Positions 2,214 through 39,314 of a stretch of DNA of 40,173 nucleotides are shown one piece after another. The stretch is taken from positions 1 through 40,173 of IMG/VR virus record IMGVR_UViG_3300017785_008116. One strand, 5' to 3'. Below the pieces are notes generated by a model, which was not told the DNA's origin, made no database searches, and saw nothing but the letters and a program-made list of their open reading frames with translations. The number at the start of each line of letters is the position of its first letter. Positions within the stretch are counted from its first letter, which is position 1. This stretch comes from a virus. Its lineage: Duplodnaviria; Caudoviricetes. The position numbers were made by a program, and so were the translations under genes.

Positions 2214-3962
2214 ATGTTAATTTCAGGCATTTACGATAAAGCTAATTTTAAAACAAAATTTAATCAAATAGATCATGAATTTGAAATTTACCTTGATTCT
2301 GGCTTTGGGGAGACAGATGCAAATAAGTACCCCATTAACCCTAACTCTATTGTCAATCTAAGTATAGAGGACACATTAGCAGATTGGGTAACTCGGGGCT
2401 CTTTAACTTTTTTTTATAACCCTGAATCTGGATCTGGCATAACTAATCTAGCTACTGGTAATGATAGAACAGCAAAAACTGGTGTAAATTCTGATAACGA
2501 TTTAAGACCGTTTTATTCACCTCGTAATGATGGTTATGATTTATTAAGAGTGCGTATTAAACCATTATTAAACGATAATCAAGACTTGCCTAATGCAACC
2601 ATTATAACTGATCCTGTTCATTGGTCTATATCTTCTCTTTTCTCAATATATGATGTTGAAGATATTGATCTCCCCCCTGGAGCTCAAGGCCAGGCCTCTT
2701 CTTCTATTAAATGTTTAAAGTTATATTTCTGGGATTCTTGGTACCAAAAGATGTTAACTAATAAATTAGAGTATTCATCTGCACTATCTCCATTTTCAAA
2801 TATAGAGAGAGATATACAAGAAGGAGTTTACGATAACCCAGGAGTCTTGCCTACTGGTCAAATTATTCGAGAAATAATAAATTTATCTCTAGGGACTAAT
2901 AGTACTCAAGAAAACTATACCAATACTACTTACGTAGACCCTGTTCTCAATTTTAACTATGAACCAATAAAAGACAGTGAATGGGAAGATGGGTCTAGTG
3001 AGATGTTTTATACAACCCCTGCTGACTCTACAGCGTTTGAAAGCTTAATGTATGTTTTTAAAAACCATGCAAGTGCAGATAGTTATTCAATACCTTCAAA
3101 AGCTACCACCCCACGAGGAGGTATACCAGATACAAAACTACATGATATAAGCTTACTTAAAAAAGAAAGAGGTCCAGATGAATATGATGTCGGGCAGTTA
3201 ACCCTACAGTCTATGTCATCTATTTTTCAAAAAGCTGGCTCCGGATCAACGACACCAGGGCCATATCAAAACGAGCATTTCTTTTTACAAGCCTATGGTA
3301 AAACTAATAGTAAACCTACTAAAACCTTACGAGGACCTATTAGCAATACCGATAGTAGCACAGTAGATTTTAAATCGTTAAAATATAGTGTTATCTCTAA
3401 TTACCGTTTTGTTGATATATCTGCTCTTACTAATACTACTGAATTTGTTAATACCCCTGTTTACTCGTTTAACTTTAAAGAGAGAACTTTTAATATAGAA
3501 TTTAATAATAACTCTGTTACAACGGCCCGAGAGTTTATGTCTGAAAAATATATCAAAAATGTTTACAAAGATAGTAATGCAGATCTAGAAAAACTTTTTT
3601 TAATTAACTTAGACAAAGATAGAGAAAACAAAAATGTAAATCCTCGATTTTCCTTAGCAGGAGATAACCCCGTAATAAGACAAAAAACTGGTCTACATAG
3701 ATTACTTTATTACGGACTATTTCAAAACGCTGCTATTAACTTTAGAACCCTTGGCCTCTCTTTTAGAGAGCCTGGTCGATTTATTGCAATTGATAAAACA
3801 GAAGGCGTTGAGGACGGTGATTTTGAAGACAAGTTTTACGGTCAATGGTTTGTTATAAACGTTAAACACATTTTTGAATCAGAAATTTACTTTAACGATA
3901 TAACGGCTATAAAAATACATCGCTTTCAAGAGGCTGAATTAAATTTACCTGGAACCCTATAA
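2214..3962 (+). CDS. Baseplate hub protein (gp27/late-control-D-like)
   Basis: 582 aa. C-terminal 'G...R.PG.FI.I...GQWFVINVKHIF' is typical of contractile-tail hub proteins; follows the gp53-like gene. Confidence 0.55.
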   Translation: MLISGIYDKANFKTKFNQIDHEFEIYLDSGFGETDANKYPINPNSIVNLSIEDTLADWVTRGSLTFFYNPESGSGITNLATGNDRTAKTGVNSDNDLRPFYSPRNDGYDLLRVRIKPLLNDNQDLPNATIITDPVHWSISSLFSIYDVEDIDLPPGAQGQASSSIKCLKLYFWDSWYQKMLTNKLEYSSALSPFSNIERDIQEGVYDNPGVLPTGQIIREIINLSLGTNSTQENYTNTTYVDPVLNFNYEPIKDSEWEDGSSEMFYTTPADSTAFESLMYVFKNHASADSYSIPSKATTPRGGIPDTKLHDISLLKKERGPDEYDVGQLTLQSMSSIFQKAGSGSTTPGPYQNEHFFLQAYGKTNSKPTKTLRGPISNTDSSTVDFKSLKYSVISNYRFVDISALTNTTEFVNTPVYSFNFKERTFNIEFNNNSVTTAREFMSEKYIKNVYKDSNADLEKLFLINLDKDRENKNVNPRFSLAGDNPVIRQKTGLHRLLYYGLFQNAAINFRTLGLSFREPGRFIAIDKTEGVEDGDFEDKFYGQWFVINVKHIFESEIYFNDITAIKIHRFQEAELNLPGTL

Positions 3963-32671: not shown

Positions 32672-32914
32672 ATGTCAAGAGTATATACAACTGTTATTAG
32701 TGAGAATGAATATATTGGGGATTCTTTAGTTACTATTAATACAAACTACGCTAACCTTGATACAAGCCTTCTATCTGTTAGTACAGAAAATATAGTATTA
32801 AAAGCTCGTTACAACTCCCTAATACAAAATCTTTCAGGTCTAGGTGCCCCTGGAACTAATTATACCTCATTAAGCACATCCTTTTTATCTCTTTCAGCAC
32901 TTATTGTGCCTTAA
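32672..32914 (+). CDS. Small adaptor-like protein, paralog 1
   Basis: NEYIGDSLVTIN...FLSLSALIVP; paralog of the next gene. Confidence 0.7.
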   Translation: MSRVYTTVISENEYIGDSLVTINTNYANLDTSLLSVSTENIVLKARYNSLIQNLSGLGAPGTNYTSLSTSFLSLSALIVP

Positions 32915-32919
32915 AAATT

Positions 32920-33150
32920 GTGGCCAGAGAATTTACAACAGAAATATATGACAATGAGTATATAGGGGACTCCCTAGTTACTATTAATAATAGCTTTAAT
33001 GCTTTAGATACTTCTAGTCAAACTATTAATAATAACTTTAATAGTTTAATTAGTGCTCTTACAGCTTTAGGAACTGCTGCGTCTGAAGGGTCCAACTTTA
33101 GATCTTTAAGTGCTAACTTTTTATCTCTTTCAGCCCTAATAGTCCCTTAA
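32920..33150 (+). CDS. Small adaptor-like protein, paralog 2
   Basis: GTG start; NEYIGDSLVTIN...FLSLSALIVP identical to motifs in 32672..32914. Confidence 0.7.
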   Translation: MAREFTTEIYDNEYIGDSLVTINNSFNALDTSSQTINNNFNSLISALTALGTAASEGSNFRSLSANFLSLSALIVP

Positions 33151-35353: not shown

Positions 35354-36214
35354 ATGAACGTACTTCCTCGTTATACCTCTGGGTCAACCAATTTTAACTC
35401 AATCATTACGAGTTATGATGCACTGGCACAAAGAATTCGCAGACAAATGGGAGAGCCCTTGGTTAACGTTGAAATAGCTAATGAGCAAATCTACGACAAC
35501 ATTGCCCAAGCTATGGAATTTTTTACCAAGTATGCAGGGTACACAGAAGAGTTTTTAATATTTGATTCTGTCAAATATACAAGAGGTGTAGGATTGAATG
35601 TCGCAACTCTCATTAATCAGACCCCAGAGATGTATAAGTCCCAAACTGCAGGCCTGTCGGCTGGTTATGATTATGATTTAGAGTCTTATAGAAGGGTACT
35701 TGACTGTTTTTCCTTTACTTACGGTGAAACTACAGGCATTAATACACTCTTTACGCTAGAGCAGGCCATGGCCCAGCAAATCTATTCTTCTTATATGGTT
35801 GGTAACTTTGGCTTTGACCTTACAACCTGGGAAGTACTTAAAGGTTTTATTGATACTCGTAATAAGGTCCTGGCCATGACTCCGCATTATAGATTTGATC
35901 CTAAAAATCAAAATTTGAGAATCATACCAGAACCTATTCCTGAACAAACATACCTAGGAGTTGTTGGTTGTTATATTGAAAGACCTATAAAGGACCTCAT
36001 CAATGAAAGATGGATCTACAGATACTCTTTAGCTCTGTGTAAAATTGTTGTTGGTAACGTAAGAGGTAAATTCTCAGGCACAAACCTTTTCGGTGGTGGT
36101 TCTGTTAACTACTCAGACTTTATGTCTCAAGGTATTGAAGAAAGAAACGCTCTAGAAGTTGAACTAAAGAACACTTATGAAGATGTTACTGGGGCTATGT
36201 TCTTTATTGGATAA
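35354..36214 (+). CDS. Neck protein gp13-like
   Basis: R..GEPLVNVE...QI.D.I..A..FF, WI.RY.LAL.K...G..RGKF.G..L.GG..VN; TAAATA at 35342-35347. Confidence 0.88.
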   Translation: MNVLPRYTSGSTNFNSIITSYDALAQRIRRQMGEPLVNVEIANEQIYDNIAQAMEFFTKYAGYTEEFLIFDSVKYTRGVGLNVATLINQTPEMYKSQTAGLSAGYDYDLESYRRVLDCFSFTYGETTGINTLFTLEQAMAQQIYSSYMVGNFGFDLTTWEVLKGFIDTRNKVLAMTPHYRFDPKNQNLRIIPEPIPEQTYLGVVGCYIERPIKDLINERWIYRYSLALCKIVVGNVRGKFSGTNLFGGGSVNYSDFMSQGIEERNALEVELKNTYEDVTGAMFFIG

Positions 36215-36217
36215 ATA
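36166..36217 (+). repeat. 52-bp direct repeat, copy 1 (3' end of gp13-like gene plus TAAATA)
   Basis: AAAGAACACTTATGAAGATGTTACTGGGGCTATGTTCTTTATTGGATAAATA; 49/52 identical to 37074-37125. Confidence 0.95.
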
Positions 36218-36222
36218 TATCT

Positions 36223-37029
36223 ATGAGTAGGTTTGAACAATTAGTAGAGTTAATTTTAGAAATGTCTGCTTATCATGGAAGTAGATCTGAAATTTCTAAT
36301 TTTTCTACACCAATACAAAAAACTGCTAATGCTGAAGTAGGAAAAGAAATTAGACAAGATTCTACAGGTCAAAATTTATTTGGATGGGGTATATACTTTT
36401 CGGCCGGAACTGCAACAGCTAAAGAGTATGCTGGTTATGAAGGAAATAAAAATAAGTTTGACACAAAAACAGCAGAAAAATCCGGTAACCTTATTTATAA
36501 TGTTGAATTAAAAGCTGAAGAAGATGAACTAATAAATTGGTACGGTAGCTATGAACAACAATCAGAAAAAGTTAAAAAAGGATTTGAAATTGTAGCTGGG
36601 TTGAATGATTGCTTTAAACAAAAACTTGAAAAAATAAAACAAGCAACGAAACCAGGCTGGGTGGCGTATAAGTCTTTAGCAATTTGTTTGCAAAGTGCAA
36701 AAAATCAAACTTCAAATGTAGTTAACTCTAAAAATGACTCAGAACAAGCTATTAAACTTCAAAAAGGTTTAGCAACAAAAGAAGGAGAAAGACAAGCTTC
36801 TTTTATGTTGTATACAAAAGGTGGTATTAAAGGTACTCTTGCAAGATCTAATTCAGAAAATTTTCCAAAATACTTTCAACAAGACAAAACCTGGTATTGT
36901 ATATTTAGCGGAGATCTTGTTACAGTTAACAAAAAAAATGGAAGATTTTTACAACCTAACAAACAGCCAATAATGGCTCGAGTTACTAATACCTTTAATA
37001 GAATTTTTAACCCTGAAAAAAGTTTATAA
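36223..37029 (+). CDS. ADP-ribosyltransferase-fold-like protein (polyvalent-protein type) with N-terminal leader
   Basis: AYHGS...F, GWGIYFS, A..YA, IYNVEL, GGIKG, WYCIF follow the motif order of ART-like modules in phage/plasmid polyvalent proteins; starts MSRFEQLVELILE. Confidence 0.55.
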   Translation: MSRFEQLVELILEMSAYHGSRSEISNFSTPIQKTANAEVGKEIRQDSTGQNLFGWGIYFSAGTATAKEYAGYEGNKNKFDTKTAEKSGNLIYNVELKAEEDELINWYGSYEQQSEKVKKGFEIVAGLNDCFKQKLEKIKQATKPGWVAYKSLAICLQSAKNQTSNVVNSKNDSEQAIKLQKGLATKEGERQASFMLYTKGGIKGTLARSNSENFPKYFQQDKTWYCIFSGDLVTVNKKNGRFLQPNKQPIMARVTNTFNRIFNPEKSL

Positions 37030-37032
37030 ATA
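37025..37032 (+). promoter_or_regulatory. T4-type late promoter TATAAATA at the cassette 3' end
   Basis: Exact consensus overlapping the stop of 36223..37029; no substantial ORF immediately follows. Confidence 0.55.
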
Positions 37033-37073
37033 ATGATATGAACTCTTGTAAGAATTGATAATGTTACAAAGAA

Positions 37074-37125
37074 AAAGAACACCTATGAAGATGTAACAGG
37101 GGCTATGTTCTTTATTGGATAAATA
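37074..37125 (+). repeat. 52-bp direct repeat, copy 2 (orphan gp13 C-terminus plus TAAATA)
   Basis: AAAGAACACCTATGAAGATGTAACAGGGGCTATGTTCTTTATTGGATAAATA; encodes the same KNTYEDVTGAMFFIG*. Confidence 0.95.
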
Positions 37126-37130
37126 ATTTT

Positions 37131-37412
37131 ATGGACTTTAACGATACAGTATTAGAAGTTTTAGAAGAAGCTAAAGGTGGTAGATGCACCAAGGTTACAA
37201 AGAAGGCCTCTTCAACGCGCTCGGGAAAGAAATGGATGAAATGTGTTAAATCCCCTGGTGGTGGTTACAAACGTATTCACTGGGGACAAGCTGGTGTAAA
37301 AGTTACCGGCAAGTCTGGTAACACTAAACGCAAAAAAGCATTTAGAGCTCGTCATAAATGTTCGTCAGCAAAGCCAGGTACACCTCGAGCAGCTGCATGC
37401 GCTGATTGGTGA
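37131..37412 (+). CDS. Small basic Cys/His-containing protein
   Basis: KKWM...IHWGQ.G...RKKAFRARHKC...PGTPR..AC..W resembles a widespread viral 'RxxFRARHxC' family; acidic leader MDFNDTVLEVLEE. Confidence 0.7.
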   Translation: MDFNDTVLEVLEEAKGGRCTKVTKKASSTRSGKKWMKCVKSPGGGYKRIHWGQAGVKVTGKSGNTKRKKAFRARHKCSSAKPGTPRAAACADW

Positions 37413-37447
37413 TAAAAAGTATATGAAAATAGATAAATAACTTATCT

Positions 37448-38032
37448 ATGAAATATGGTTTTATTTACAAAATAACCAATTTAATAAACAACAAAAAATA
37501 TATCGGTTTCAAAACCTATACAAAAGGCTGGAAAGAGTATATGGGTAGTAGTAAAACTCTAAAAGAGGATATAAAAAAATTTGGTAAAGAAAACTTTCAG
37601 AGGGAAATAATAGAAGAAGGAGATTCTTTAAAAGAATTACAAGAAAAAGAAATTACACATTTAACAAAAAATAATGTACTTGAAAGAGATGACTATTACA
37701 ATCAGTCTATACCGCACCCTCGCTTTAGAAGATTAAAAGGAGGAAGTCACAGTAATAAAGGTAAAACCTGGGAGGAGGTTTACGGTGTTGAATATGCTAA
37801 TAAAAAAAGAGAAGCGTTACGTAATAGAATAAAAGGTAAAACGTGGGAAGAAATATGCGGGGATAAAGAAAAAGCTAAACAAAGAAGAATTATAGCAAAG
37901 CAAAATAAAACAGAAGAAACAAAACGTAAAATGAGCGAAGGCCGTAAGGGTATAAAATTTACTGATACCCATAGAGCTAACTTAAGTAAAGCTTTAAAAC
38001 AATATTTTAATGAATCGCAAAAGAACATCTAA
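37448..38032 (+). mobile_element. Free-standing GIY-YIG homing endonuclease (Seg-like) with NUMOD3-like C-terminal motifs
   Basis: GFIYKITNLINNKKYIG, YMGSS, F.REII, YYN; two KGKTWEE repeats (37757, 37832); TEETKRKMSE and FTDTHRANLS; own TAAATA at 37434-37439. Confidence 0.88.
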
Positions 38033-38459
38033 GTTCAAACAAGGTATATTCAACCCTGTTAATAAAGACAAGTATAAAGGCTCATCCCCAATACTCTACA
38101 GGTCATCATATGAGATCAAGTTTATGCGCTGGTGTGACCATAACCCAGCAATATTAACCTGGGGATCAGAATCAGTTATTGTTCCTTATCAAAACCCTCT
38201 CACTCAAAGAGTGTCTCGTTATTTTGTAGACTTTAATATAACTTTAAAGAATAAAAACGGCGAAACTAAAAAATATCTTATAGAAATAAAGCCCTCTGTT
38301 CAGACCGTACCACCCATACCTACTAAGAACACAAGATCTCTTCTTAGACGTCAAGCTGAGTATGTTAAAAATAGAGCTAAGTGGGAGGCGGCAACTCAGT
38401 TTGCAACTAAAAAAGGGTCAGAGTTCGTTGTGCTTACCGAGAAACACTTAGGCCTTTGA
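38010..38459 (+). CDS. Head completion nuclease gp4-like (TnsA-like fold)
   Basis: G.F.P.N..KY.G, YRSSYE..FM.WCD.NP....WGSE, RYFVDF, IEIKP, N.AKW.AA, LTE. Confidence 0.92.
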   Translation: MNRKRTSKFKQGIFNPVNKDKYKGSSPILYRSSYEIKFMRWCDHNPAILTWGSESVIVPYQNPLTQRVSRYFVDFNITLKNKNGETKKYLIEIKPSVQTVPPIPTKNTRSLLRRQAEYVKNRAKWEAATQFATKKGSEFVVLTEKHLGL

Positions 38460-39314
38460 AGAATACTTTCTTGTCTTTTCAGAACCGGGTACAACCTCTT
38501 CAGTTATCTCTTCTGTTATAATAGTTTTTGTCCGAGCCGGGATAGGTTGATCTACTAACAGCTGTTTAGTTTCTTTTAATATAGATCCACCTCGAGCAAT
38601 GTTATAAGCTAATACCAAAGATACAGCTAATGGATCAAATACTAAAACAATAATCAGGATAAAAAGCTTTACAACTGTATCAAGAGGCAAGCCAACTGAC
38701 TCAGCTACAAACTTAAAAGTGCCAATATCATGCACTTCATTACCTTCAGAGTTTAAAACAATAAGTTCGTTATCTTTCTCAAATGCTGTAGTTTGAAGCT
38801 CTTGTACCCGGGCTGTTAAGCCTTTAATTTCTTCAGCTGATCTTGCCATATCCTCATAAACAGGTTTAGCTGCTAGACGAGACATTTGAGGTAAACGAGT
38901 TTCTTGTGACTTACGAGCATCATTTAAAGTGTTAATACGCGAGTTAATCTGTTCAACTTCTTTTGTAATGTTATCTTTTTGCTGTACAATAAGAGAGGCC
39001 TTATTATCAATAAGCTCAGTCTTACCTGCATTAACCTGGTAGCCCGATGATAGATAACCATAGATACCTAATGAGGTAATACCCATGAGCACCAATACAG
39101 CCATTATCATGTATATCTTTAAAAACCAAACTACTTTGTTCCAGTAACGATACAGGAATGAGGTTGCTACTAATTTACCTAACTCCAAGGACCCGGCCAT
39201 AATAATAACTGACCAGAAGTGCCCGGAGAATAAAGTTGCAATACCGAGGACTGAAAAATAGGCTGCACTTCCTGCTACCAGGAGTGCTGTGAAGGCTAAT
39301 AGGGCTGTAAACAT
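38448..39314 (-). CDS. Membrane protein with three N-terminal TM segments, coiled coil and C-terminal TM
   Basis: Hydrophobic 'AAYFSVLG...LELGKLV...ITSLGIYGYLS' and 'VFDPLAVSL' segments; TATAAATA on the reverse strand 8 nt upstream. Confidence 0.75.
   Translation of the reverse strand: MFTALLAFTALLVAGSAAYFSVLGIATLFSGHFWSVIIMAGSLELGKLVATSFLYRYWNKVVWFLKIYMIMAVLVLMGITSLGIYGYLSSGYQVNAGKTELIDNKASLIVQQKDNITKEVEQINSRINTLNDARKSQETRLPQMSRLAAKPVYEDMARSAEEIKGLTARVQELQTTAFEKDNELIVLNSEGNEVHDIGTFKFVAESVGLPLDTVVKLFILIIVLVFDPLAVSLVLAYNIARGGSILKETKQLLVDQPIPARTKTIITEEITEEVVPGSEKTRKYSSKA

What the first reader, a model, noticed from the sequence alone, without database searches (positions are those of the whole stretch)
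36166..37125. 908-bp effector cassette bounded by a synonymously recoded duplicate of the neck-gene (gp13) 3' end plus its promoter
Seen: 36166-36217 and 37074-37125 are a 52-bp direct repeat, 908 bp apart. The three mismatches (36175/37083, 36187/37095, 36190/37098) are all third-codon synonymous changes, so both copies encode KNTYEDVTGAMFFIG* followed by the late-promoter core TAAATA. Copy 2 has no in-frame ATG (TGA at 37039). Between the copies is one visibly A-rich ART-like gene, with no integrase or nuclease. Inference: the cassette inserted into the end of an essential gene while supplying a replacement C-terminus and promoter from a diverged relative. Recombination between the repeats would excise it cleanly, leaving gp13 intact and the promoter in front of gene 37131. 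This looks like a plug-in/plug-out slot for late-expressed cargo genes.
Basis: partly seen in the sequence, partly recalled or inferred. Interest (0 to 1): 0.85.

Follow-up and report, generated by a model that had tools for sequence, protein, structure and literature searches.

The report
Recombination scar duplicating phage neck-gene end
The 52-base repeat is real, but it is likely an accidental scar left when a stretch carrying a predicted ADP-ribosyltransferase gene was joined in from a related phage through an 8-base chance match, so it is ordinary phage gene shuffling rather than a purpose-built plug-in slot.

Summary
The repeat, its three synonymous differences and the cargo are real, and independent assemblies span them. 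The 44 bp before copy 2 are not cassette DNA. Window 37044-37085 matches (39/42) the junction of the small gene's end and the head-completion gene's start in relatives, and meets copy 2 at an 8-bp microhomology (null 2e-4). So copy 2 marks a join between two genomes. The differences are standing allelic variation: 20 relatives differ by 1-11 of 45 nt. A relative carries the cargo without the duplicate, and 52 of 68 related loci have no gene in the slot. The best reading is one-sided repair: homologous exchange in the neck gene's last ~150 bp plus a microhomology join, as described for T4. The cargo is a divergent ART-PolyVal-like protein with a capsid-targeting-like leader, likely head-packaged; its activity is untested. 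One unrelated cargo shows a similar duplication (L039), so the site may recur. The scan noted analogous scars on other DNA (e1-221947, e1-395438).

The parts
35354..36214 (+). Neck / head-tail adaptor gene (T4 gp13-like), 286 aa, intact
   Evidence: PHROG 211 E 1e-23; tblastn to annotated neck proteins at 22-24%
36020..36100 (.). Inferred zone of the left, homologous crossover
   Evidence: Differences to L090 at 36019, then none until 36100; 4/246 before 36070 versus 14/145 after, p=6e-4. Inferred; the population is mosaic.
36166..36217 (+). Repeat copy 1: working neck-gene end plus TAAATA (36212-36217)
36223..37029 (+). Cargo: solo ART-PolyVal-like protein, 268 aa, with a 13-aa leader ending I-L-E
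   Evidence: Pfam PARP E 0.003, ART-PolyVal E 0.03, both under cut-off; hhalign 97% to PF18760-positive P0009; Foldseek viral E 6.6e-7 to polyvalent proteins; leader
37027..37032 (+). TAAATA over the ART stop: the donor's promoter for its small gene
   Evidence: role inferred from X12 joint
37038..37061 (+). Relic of the donor's small basic gene: start codons joined to its last five codons (Trp codon now TGA), interior deleted
   Evidence: 37044-37061 matches small-gene ends of L007/L008/L019; start assignment inferred from X12 joint 37050->37144
37061..37081 (+). Relic first seven codons (MLQRKRT) of a head-completion gene of a different allele from this genome's own (MNRKRT)
37074..37081 (+). 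8-bp microhomology AAAGAACA shared by head-completion start and neck-gene end (11 of 12 to 37085): the illegitimate junction
   Evidence: null P for 8 or more = 2e-4 per random breakpoint pair
37074..37125 (+). Repeat copy 2: stranded end of the second genome's neck gene plus TAAATA (37120-37125)
   Evidence: X13 contig carries 37074-38086 (19 differences) directly behind an intact neck gene; 37120-37201 identical to empty relative L090
37131..37412 (+). Small basic gene, 93-aa allele, with the shared leader
   Evidence: (DUF5754 E 1e-4, under cut-off)
37448..38032 (+). Free-standing GIY-YIG (Seg-like) homing endonuclease gene, outside the repeats
   Evidence: PF19835 E 1e-15; PHROG 314
38010..38459 (+). 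This genome's head-completion gene (T4 gp4-like; name recalled)
   Evidence: PHROG 218 'head closure' E 8e-48; TnsA-like N-terminal Pfam

Best explanation
The repeat is likely a scar of one-sided repair between two co-infecting related phages, not a designed cassette boundary. A donor with the order neck gene - promoter - ART - promoter - small gene - head-completion gene was copied into a recipient lacking the ART. On the left the exchange was homologous, probably in the last ~150 bp of the neck gene, so the working end (copy 1) came from the donor (inferred). On the right, the donor's seventh head-completion codon was joined to the recipient's neck-gene end at the 8-bp match AAAGAACA, stranding copy 2 (junction anatomy shown; order of events inferred). 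The donor's now redundant small gene lost its interior, probably between two copies of TCTTGTAA (inferred from a joint table). The three differences are ordinary allele differences between two coding ends, and the lack of any amino-acid change in the dead copy suggests a recent event. The ART is predicted to be made late, packed into the head through its short leader, trimmed by the prohead protease and injected to modify a host target with ADP-ribose (inferred by analogy with T4 Alt and internal proteins; untested).
For: Spacer 37044-37085 matches small-gene end plus head-completion start of L007/L008/L019 at 39/42, E 8e-12. A 38-nt pattern for it hits 5 loci in the viral collection: the window's own contig and 4 such junctions. 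The relic start (MLQRKRT) differs from this genome's own (MNRKRT), so two genomes were involved. 8-bp microhomology, null 2e-4. X12 record 23 carries the ART (58 differences in 935 bp) and joins 37050->37144, skipping 93 bp including copy 2, in register with the small gene. X13 record 25 carries the copy-2 block behind an intact neck gene. L090 matches the window on both sides (4/246 upstream; 82/82 at 37120-37201; 98.8% at 38454-38799) but not in the neck gene's last 145 bp. Codon variants are standing variation. One-sided homing with microhomology junctions is described for T4 (PMC2988022, passage).
Against: The X12 letters were not seen; its reading comes from a joint table marked 'between: not known', 18 of its letters are unplaced, and it could instead be a later 93-bp deletion from a window-like allele. 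No complete donor locus was found. The left crossover rests on two relatives in a mosaic population (L003 shows no such step). L039 has a second, 37-38-bp duplication around unrelated cargo, and its spacer matched nothing, so recurrence is not explained by this one accident. PMC3945230 (passage) argues illegitimate recombination is rarer than relaxed homologous recombination in phage evolution. The ART lacks a clear third catalytic residue (W224).
Confidence: 0.62

Rival explanations
1. Same scar, opposite direction: the ART-bearing genome was the recipient. The GIY-YIG endonuclease block (neck-gene end, 93-aa small gene, endonuclease) homed in after a cut near the recipient's small-gene/head-completion junction. 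The right end repaired by homology in the head-completion gene, the left end by the 8-bp microhomology.
For: Block 37074-38086 is 98% identical in X13 while X13's neck gene is only about 90% identical and X13 diverges again after about 38090, as expected of a co-conversion tract. The donor-side break lies within seven codons of where endonuclease genes sit in the window, L005, L012, L015, L024 and L057. Mechanism described for T4 (PMC2988022).
Against: The window's backbone matches ART-less L090 on both sides and in 37120-37201, which favours import of the ART segment. The endonuclease's target is unknown.
Confidence: 0.25
2. One reading: a dedicated plug-in/plug-out slot where cargo genes travel with a copy of the neck-gene end plus promoter (as circles, PeSL-like) and integrate or excise by homologous recombination.
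For: Empty alleles are the rule; X13 skips exactly 908 bp; a second cargo with a neck-gene-end plus promoter duplication exists (L039, second junction identical in L161; empty relative L128). A 27-bp perfect run could allow rare excision.
Against: A circle integrating by homology would not carry relics of the small gene and head-completion start. ART occurs without the duplicate. Duplications were seen in 2 of 69 non-redundant loci, the window included, with different lengths. X13 is a 10%-diverged strain, not an excision product. The ART homolog P0002 sits at another site.
Confidence: 0.08
3. Tandem duplication by slippage inside one genome, or an assembly artefact.
For: Slippage from the head-completion start back to the neck-gene end would use the same 8-bp match.
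Against: It would duplicate the ART and give identical small-gene and head-completion alleles; the relic alleles differ from the resident ones. Several assemblies span the junctions.
Confidence: 0.02

Closest known systems
One-sided, illegitimate double-strand-break repair in T4 homing (PMC2988022, passages) and homology-facilitated illegitimate recombination in transformable bacteria (PMC6382021, passages)
   Same: Extended homology on one side, a microhomology junction on the other, and foreign DNA gained.
   Different: Here it is a natural product in an uncultured freshwater T4-like phage; the trigger is unknown; the by-product is a duplicated essential-gene end.
PeSL promoter/stem-loop cassettes of RB49 and phi1 (PMC2839356, passages)
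   Same: An accessory gene between direct repeats containing a promoter; a single copy at the empty site; excision possible by the phage's own recombination.
   Different: PeSLs are a multi-copy intergenic family with sigma70 promoter and stem-loop in hyperplastic regions. This is a two-copy repeat of a coding end in the virion module with a broken-gene scar.
ART domains of polyvalent proteins, PF18760 / Tox-ART-HYD2 clade (PMC5512222, passages)
   Same: His in strand 1 (H18), Tyr in strand 2 (Y58), fold matches to ART-PolyVal-like viral proteins, late-gene context.
   Different: Solo protein; 15.5 bits against a cut-off of 31.2; no evident Asp in strand 5.
T4 Alt and internal proteins IPI-III with capsid targeting sequences (PMC9026906, passages)
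   Same: Short N-terminal leader ending in L/I-x-E shared by unrelated mature proteins; an ART in a late head-gene region.
   Different: Alt is an R-S-E-clade ART (PMC5512222), unrelated in family; the leader here is 13 aa; packaging is not shown.

Membership tests
One-sided / homology-facilitated illegitimate recombination product | Microhomology at one junction between otherwise unrelated sequences | tested here: met
   8 bp exact, 11 of 12; null 2e-4
One-sided / homology-facilitated illegitimate recombination product | Homologous anchor on the other side | tested here: inconclusive
   Step in divergence to L090 (p=6e-4) and L002 (p=0.003) near 36070-36100; no clear step to L003
One-sided / homology-facilitated illegitimate recombination product | Incoming segment comes from a second, related genome | tested here: met
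   Relic small-gene end and head-completion start are alleles of L007/L008/L019, not of this genome
One-sided / homology-facilitated illegitimate recombination product | Initiated by a double-strand break and dependent on a recombinase | not testable with these tools
   Needs crosses
PeSL cassette | Multi-copy repeated element in the genome | tested here: not met
   Two copies in the 40-kb contig, which is all that is held of the genome
PeSL cassette | Sigma70 promoter plus stem-loop in each repeat | tested here: not met
   7 promoter-like sites versus 5.6 expected, none inside a repeat; no + strand terminator in 36000-37600
PeSL cassette | Excised mini-circles | tested here: inconclusive
   No joint in 4 of 4 runs; contigs drop rare forms, and PeSL circles were about 1 in 1e5 virions
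Integrative element restoring a gene's 3' end (attL/attR; features recalled) | Integrase carried by the element | tested here: not met
   The only gene between the repeats has no integrase hit; the rest of the phage genome is not held
Integrative element restoring a gene's 3' end (attL/attR; features recalled) | Cargo always flanked by the duplicated core | tested here: not met
   ART-bearing contig in X12 skips copy 2 (read from a joint table)
ART-PolyVal (PF18760) | Score above the Pfam gathering threshold | tested here: not met
   15.5 of 31.2 bits; homolog P0002 23.5
ART-PolyVal (PF18760) | His in strand 1 and Tyr in strand 2 | tested here: met
   H18 and Y58 invariant in 5 of 5 aligned sequences, on predicted strands E15-20 and E56-60
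ART-PolyVal (PF18760) | Asp in strand 5 | tested here: inconclusive
   W224 aligns with Asn of P0009; nearest acid is D221 in a low-confidence segment
ART-PolyVal (PF18760) | ART fold | tested here: met
   Model pLDDT 57; 16 viral matches at E<=0.001, best 6.6e-7, several named ART-PolyVal-like; no PDB match at E<=0.001
T4-type internal head protein with capsid targeting sequence | Short N-terminal leader ending in L/I-x-E, shared by unrelated proteins | tested here: met
   L7-V-E9 and I11-L-E13; one leader pattern picks the ART, P0002, a 289-aa protein and several unrelated small-gene bodies
T4-type internal head protein with capsid targeting sequence | Packaged, cleaved and injected | not testable with these tools
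   Needs virion proteomics

The most novel reading that the evidence does not exclude
The neck gene's 3' end is a recurrent gene-capture hot spot in this phage clade. Homing-type nucleases that occupy the neck-gene stop in relatives (DUF7487 genes in L013/L017, L047, L143) cut nuclease-free alleles there, and one-sided repair anchored in the essential gene imports late-expressed cargo while leaving a gene-end plus promoter duplicate that later allows clean loss. The window and L039 would be two independent captures.
Probability: 0.18. Interest if true: 0.58.

Novelty: new member of a known kind. Interest (0 to 1): 0.3.

Why it matters
It is an unusually legible natural record of how a lytic T4-like phage gains a gene inside its essential virion module: donor relic, microhomology and both parental allele types can be read from sequence. 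It does not show a new mobile system. The cargo is a candidate head-packaged ART with few relatives (3 cluster members, one 33% homolog elsewhere), a testable host-takeover or anti-defence effector. If more captures at this site are found, nuclease-seeded gene capture would become a testable idea.

Tried and rejected
Assembly artefact: rejected. Deliberate recoding: rejected, variants are standing polymorphism. My early idea that the spacer was the start of a CxxC nuclease gene: rejected once it matched small-gene and head-completion ends. Searches for further duplications with degenerate C-terminal patterns found two copies only in the window's own contig, among 25 viral and 9 metagenome stretches. 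Searches for other ART-bearing loci gave only the window's contig and P0002 at another site; none in cultured phages; none among longer proteins (weak evidence). The first fold model was unusable (pLDDT 43); PDB sequence and fold searches gave nothing significant. The origin of the L039 spacer and cargo was not found. No excision joint was seen, but contigs cannot show rare events, so this is not counted against excision. No host could be assigned: cultured neck proteins are only 22-24% identical. Literature searches for this exact arrangement returned no paper describing it (open-licence library only). PMC10448965 passages were not relevant. The genome-contig scan was not used.

Full report
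Observation. The repeat is as described: 36166-36217 and 37074-37125, 49 of 52 identical, with three third-position differences. TAAATA overlaps the neck-gene stop, the ART stop and the copy-2 stop and precedes 13 of 26 + strand ORFs over 70 aa. The upstream gene is a neck/head-tail adaptor. The window is the whole held contig of a T4-like phage; the runs that hold it are freshwater metagenomes. Contigs of X1 and X3, possibly the source samples, span the region in one piece, and X5, X7 and X11 span single junctions.

Relatives. Two scans gave 57 and 80 overlapping neck-gene loci. After dropping loci without the gene end and loci with identical ends, 69 remained, the window's own contig included. 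Of the other 68, 46 go straight to a small basic gene, 6 straight to head completion, 12 to another gene and 4 had no ORF called or were cut off. Two of 69 have a neck-gene-end duplication: the window and L039, a 37-38-bp repeat around an unrelated 379-aa gene, with an empty relative L128 and the second junction repeated in L161.

The differences are not recoding. Among 21 relative contexts with the same peptide (20 distinct sequences), every codon used by copy 1 or copy 2 occurs, and pairs differ by 1-11 of 45 nt, mean 6.3. Three differences is on the low side. Only 3 of 23 relatives at 85% identity or more have TAAATA over the stop, so the downstream gene does not need it.

The spacer gives the mechanism. 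Window 37044-37085 matches at 39 of 42 the end of the 90-aa small gene and the start of the head-completion gene in L007, L008 and L019 (E 8e-12). A pattern for it finds only the window's contig and four such junctions in the viral collection. The relic reads MLQRKRT, whereas this genome's own gene starts MNRKRT, and the resident small gene is another allele, so two genomes met here. The relic overlaps copy 2 in AAAGAACA (37074-37081; 11 of 12 to 37085); a match of 8 or more occurs at 2e-4 of random breakpoint pairs.

Both parental types appear in other runs. X13 record 25 skips exactly 908 bp, but has 87 differences in the neck gene and 19 in 37074-38086: an empty allele of another lineage that carries the copy-2 block natively, not an excision product. 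X12 record 23 carries the ART (58 differences in 935 bp; its insertions fit the 270-aa P0006) and joins 37050 to 37144, a 93-bp skip equal to the distance between the starts at 37038 and 37131. It therefore has the ART without the duplicate. Read as a direct joint, it puts TCTTGTAA at the small gene's start; the same 8-mer lies at the gene's end, which would explain the internal deletion. I saw only the joint table, marked 'between: not known', so a later deletion from a window-like allele is not excluded. X12 also holds an empty allele (joint 36214->37127).

Left boundary. L090 differs from the window at 4 of 246 sites before 36070 and 14 of 145 after (p=6e-4), is identical over 37120-37201 and 98.8% identical at 38454-38799. 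L002 shows a similar step (p=0.003); L003 does not clearly. This fits import of a donor segment anchored in the neck gene's last ~150 bp. The reverse direction, homing of the GIY-YIG block into an ART-bearing genome, stays possible. That the repeat is a microhomology scar between two genomes I put near 0.87; the direction is less sure.

Cargo. Pfam hits are under cut-off. The nearest homolog, P0002 (33%), lies at another site in another phage. The family aligns end to end with PF18760-positive P0009 (97%); atlas neighbours at 0.92 carry ART-PolyVal on 42-58% of members; a medium-confidence model (pLDDT 57) matches ART-PolyVal-like viral proteins but nothing significant in the PDB. H18 and Y58 are kept; the strand-5 Asp described in PMC5512222 (passages) is not evident. 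The leader ends in I-L-E and matches the leader shared by unrelated small genes, as T4 capsid targeting sequences do (PMC9026906, passages). Packaging, injection and activity are inferred.

Comparison with what is known. It works like T4 one-sided illegitimate repair (PMC2988022, passages) and homology-facilitated illegitimate recombination (PMC6382021, passages). It fails the PeSL features tested (PMC2839356, passages) and has no integrase. PMC3945230 (passages) holds such events to be rare, in line with 2 of 69. No paper on this exact arrangement came up; no supplements were read. The scan's notes list analogous scars in other genomes (unchecked, seen after my reading was recorded).

Verdict. 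A real, recent recombination scar with an interesting but untested cargo: new member of a known kind, interest 0.3. L039 and the nuclease genes at the same stop leave open a recurrent capture site (probability about 0.18).

Noticed in passing
L013:5808-7000, L016, L017:5811-7003, L023; L030, L035, L083: A 362-aa HTH plus DUF7487 nuclease-like gene sits at the neck-gene stop and the neck protein reads through into a 21-aa extension; the extension persists without the nuclease in L030, L035 and L083. Longer DUF7487 genes follow the neck gene in L047 and L143; a 367-aa look-alike in L154 was not scanned.
   Followed up: partly
L039:2160-2196 and 3386-3423; L161: Second neck-gene-end plus TAAATA duplication (37-38 bp, one synonymous difference) around a 379-aa gene with weak BNR-repeat hits; copy 1's flank contains a 13-bp inverted repeat. 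Spacer origin not found.
   Followed up: partly
window 37131-37412 and equivalents in 46 loci: The small basic gene has several unrelated bodies (about 90, 93, 96, 101 aa; DUF5754, DUF6321 and others) behind one conserved leader ending in L-E-E, like T4 internal proteins sharing a targeting propeptide.
   Followed up: partly
window 37448-38032; L005:3608-4471; L012, L015, L024, L057, L083: Different nuclease-like genes occupy the slot before the head-completion gene; in L005 and the L012 group that gene's first codons are rewritten.
   Followed up: partly
L002:7486-7791, L014:7538-8407, L015:5803-7642, L022:3184-3831, L090:1135-1350: Further variable genes around the prohead protease and head-completion genes, some with leader-like starts; no flanking repeats were reported for L002, L014, L015 or L022 (L090 was not scanned).
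   Followed up: no
window 32672-32914 and 32920-33150: Two tandem paralogous 76-80-aa genes with similar starts and ends give repeats D3 and D6; ordinary paralogy.
   Followed up: no
P0007 (cluster of the ART): A 261-aa member differs from the ART by a 7-residue internal loss; real variant or assembly error not checked.
   Followed up: no
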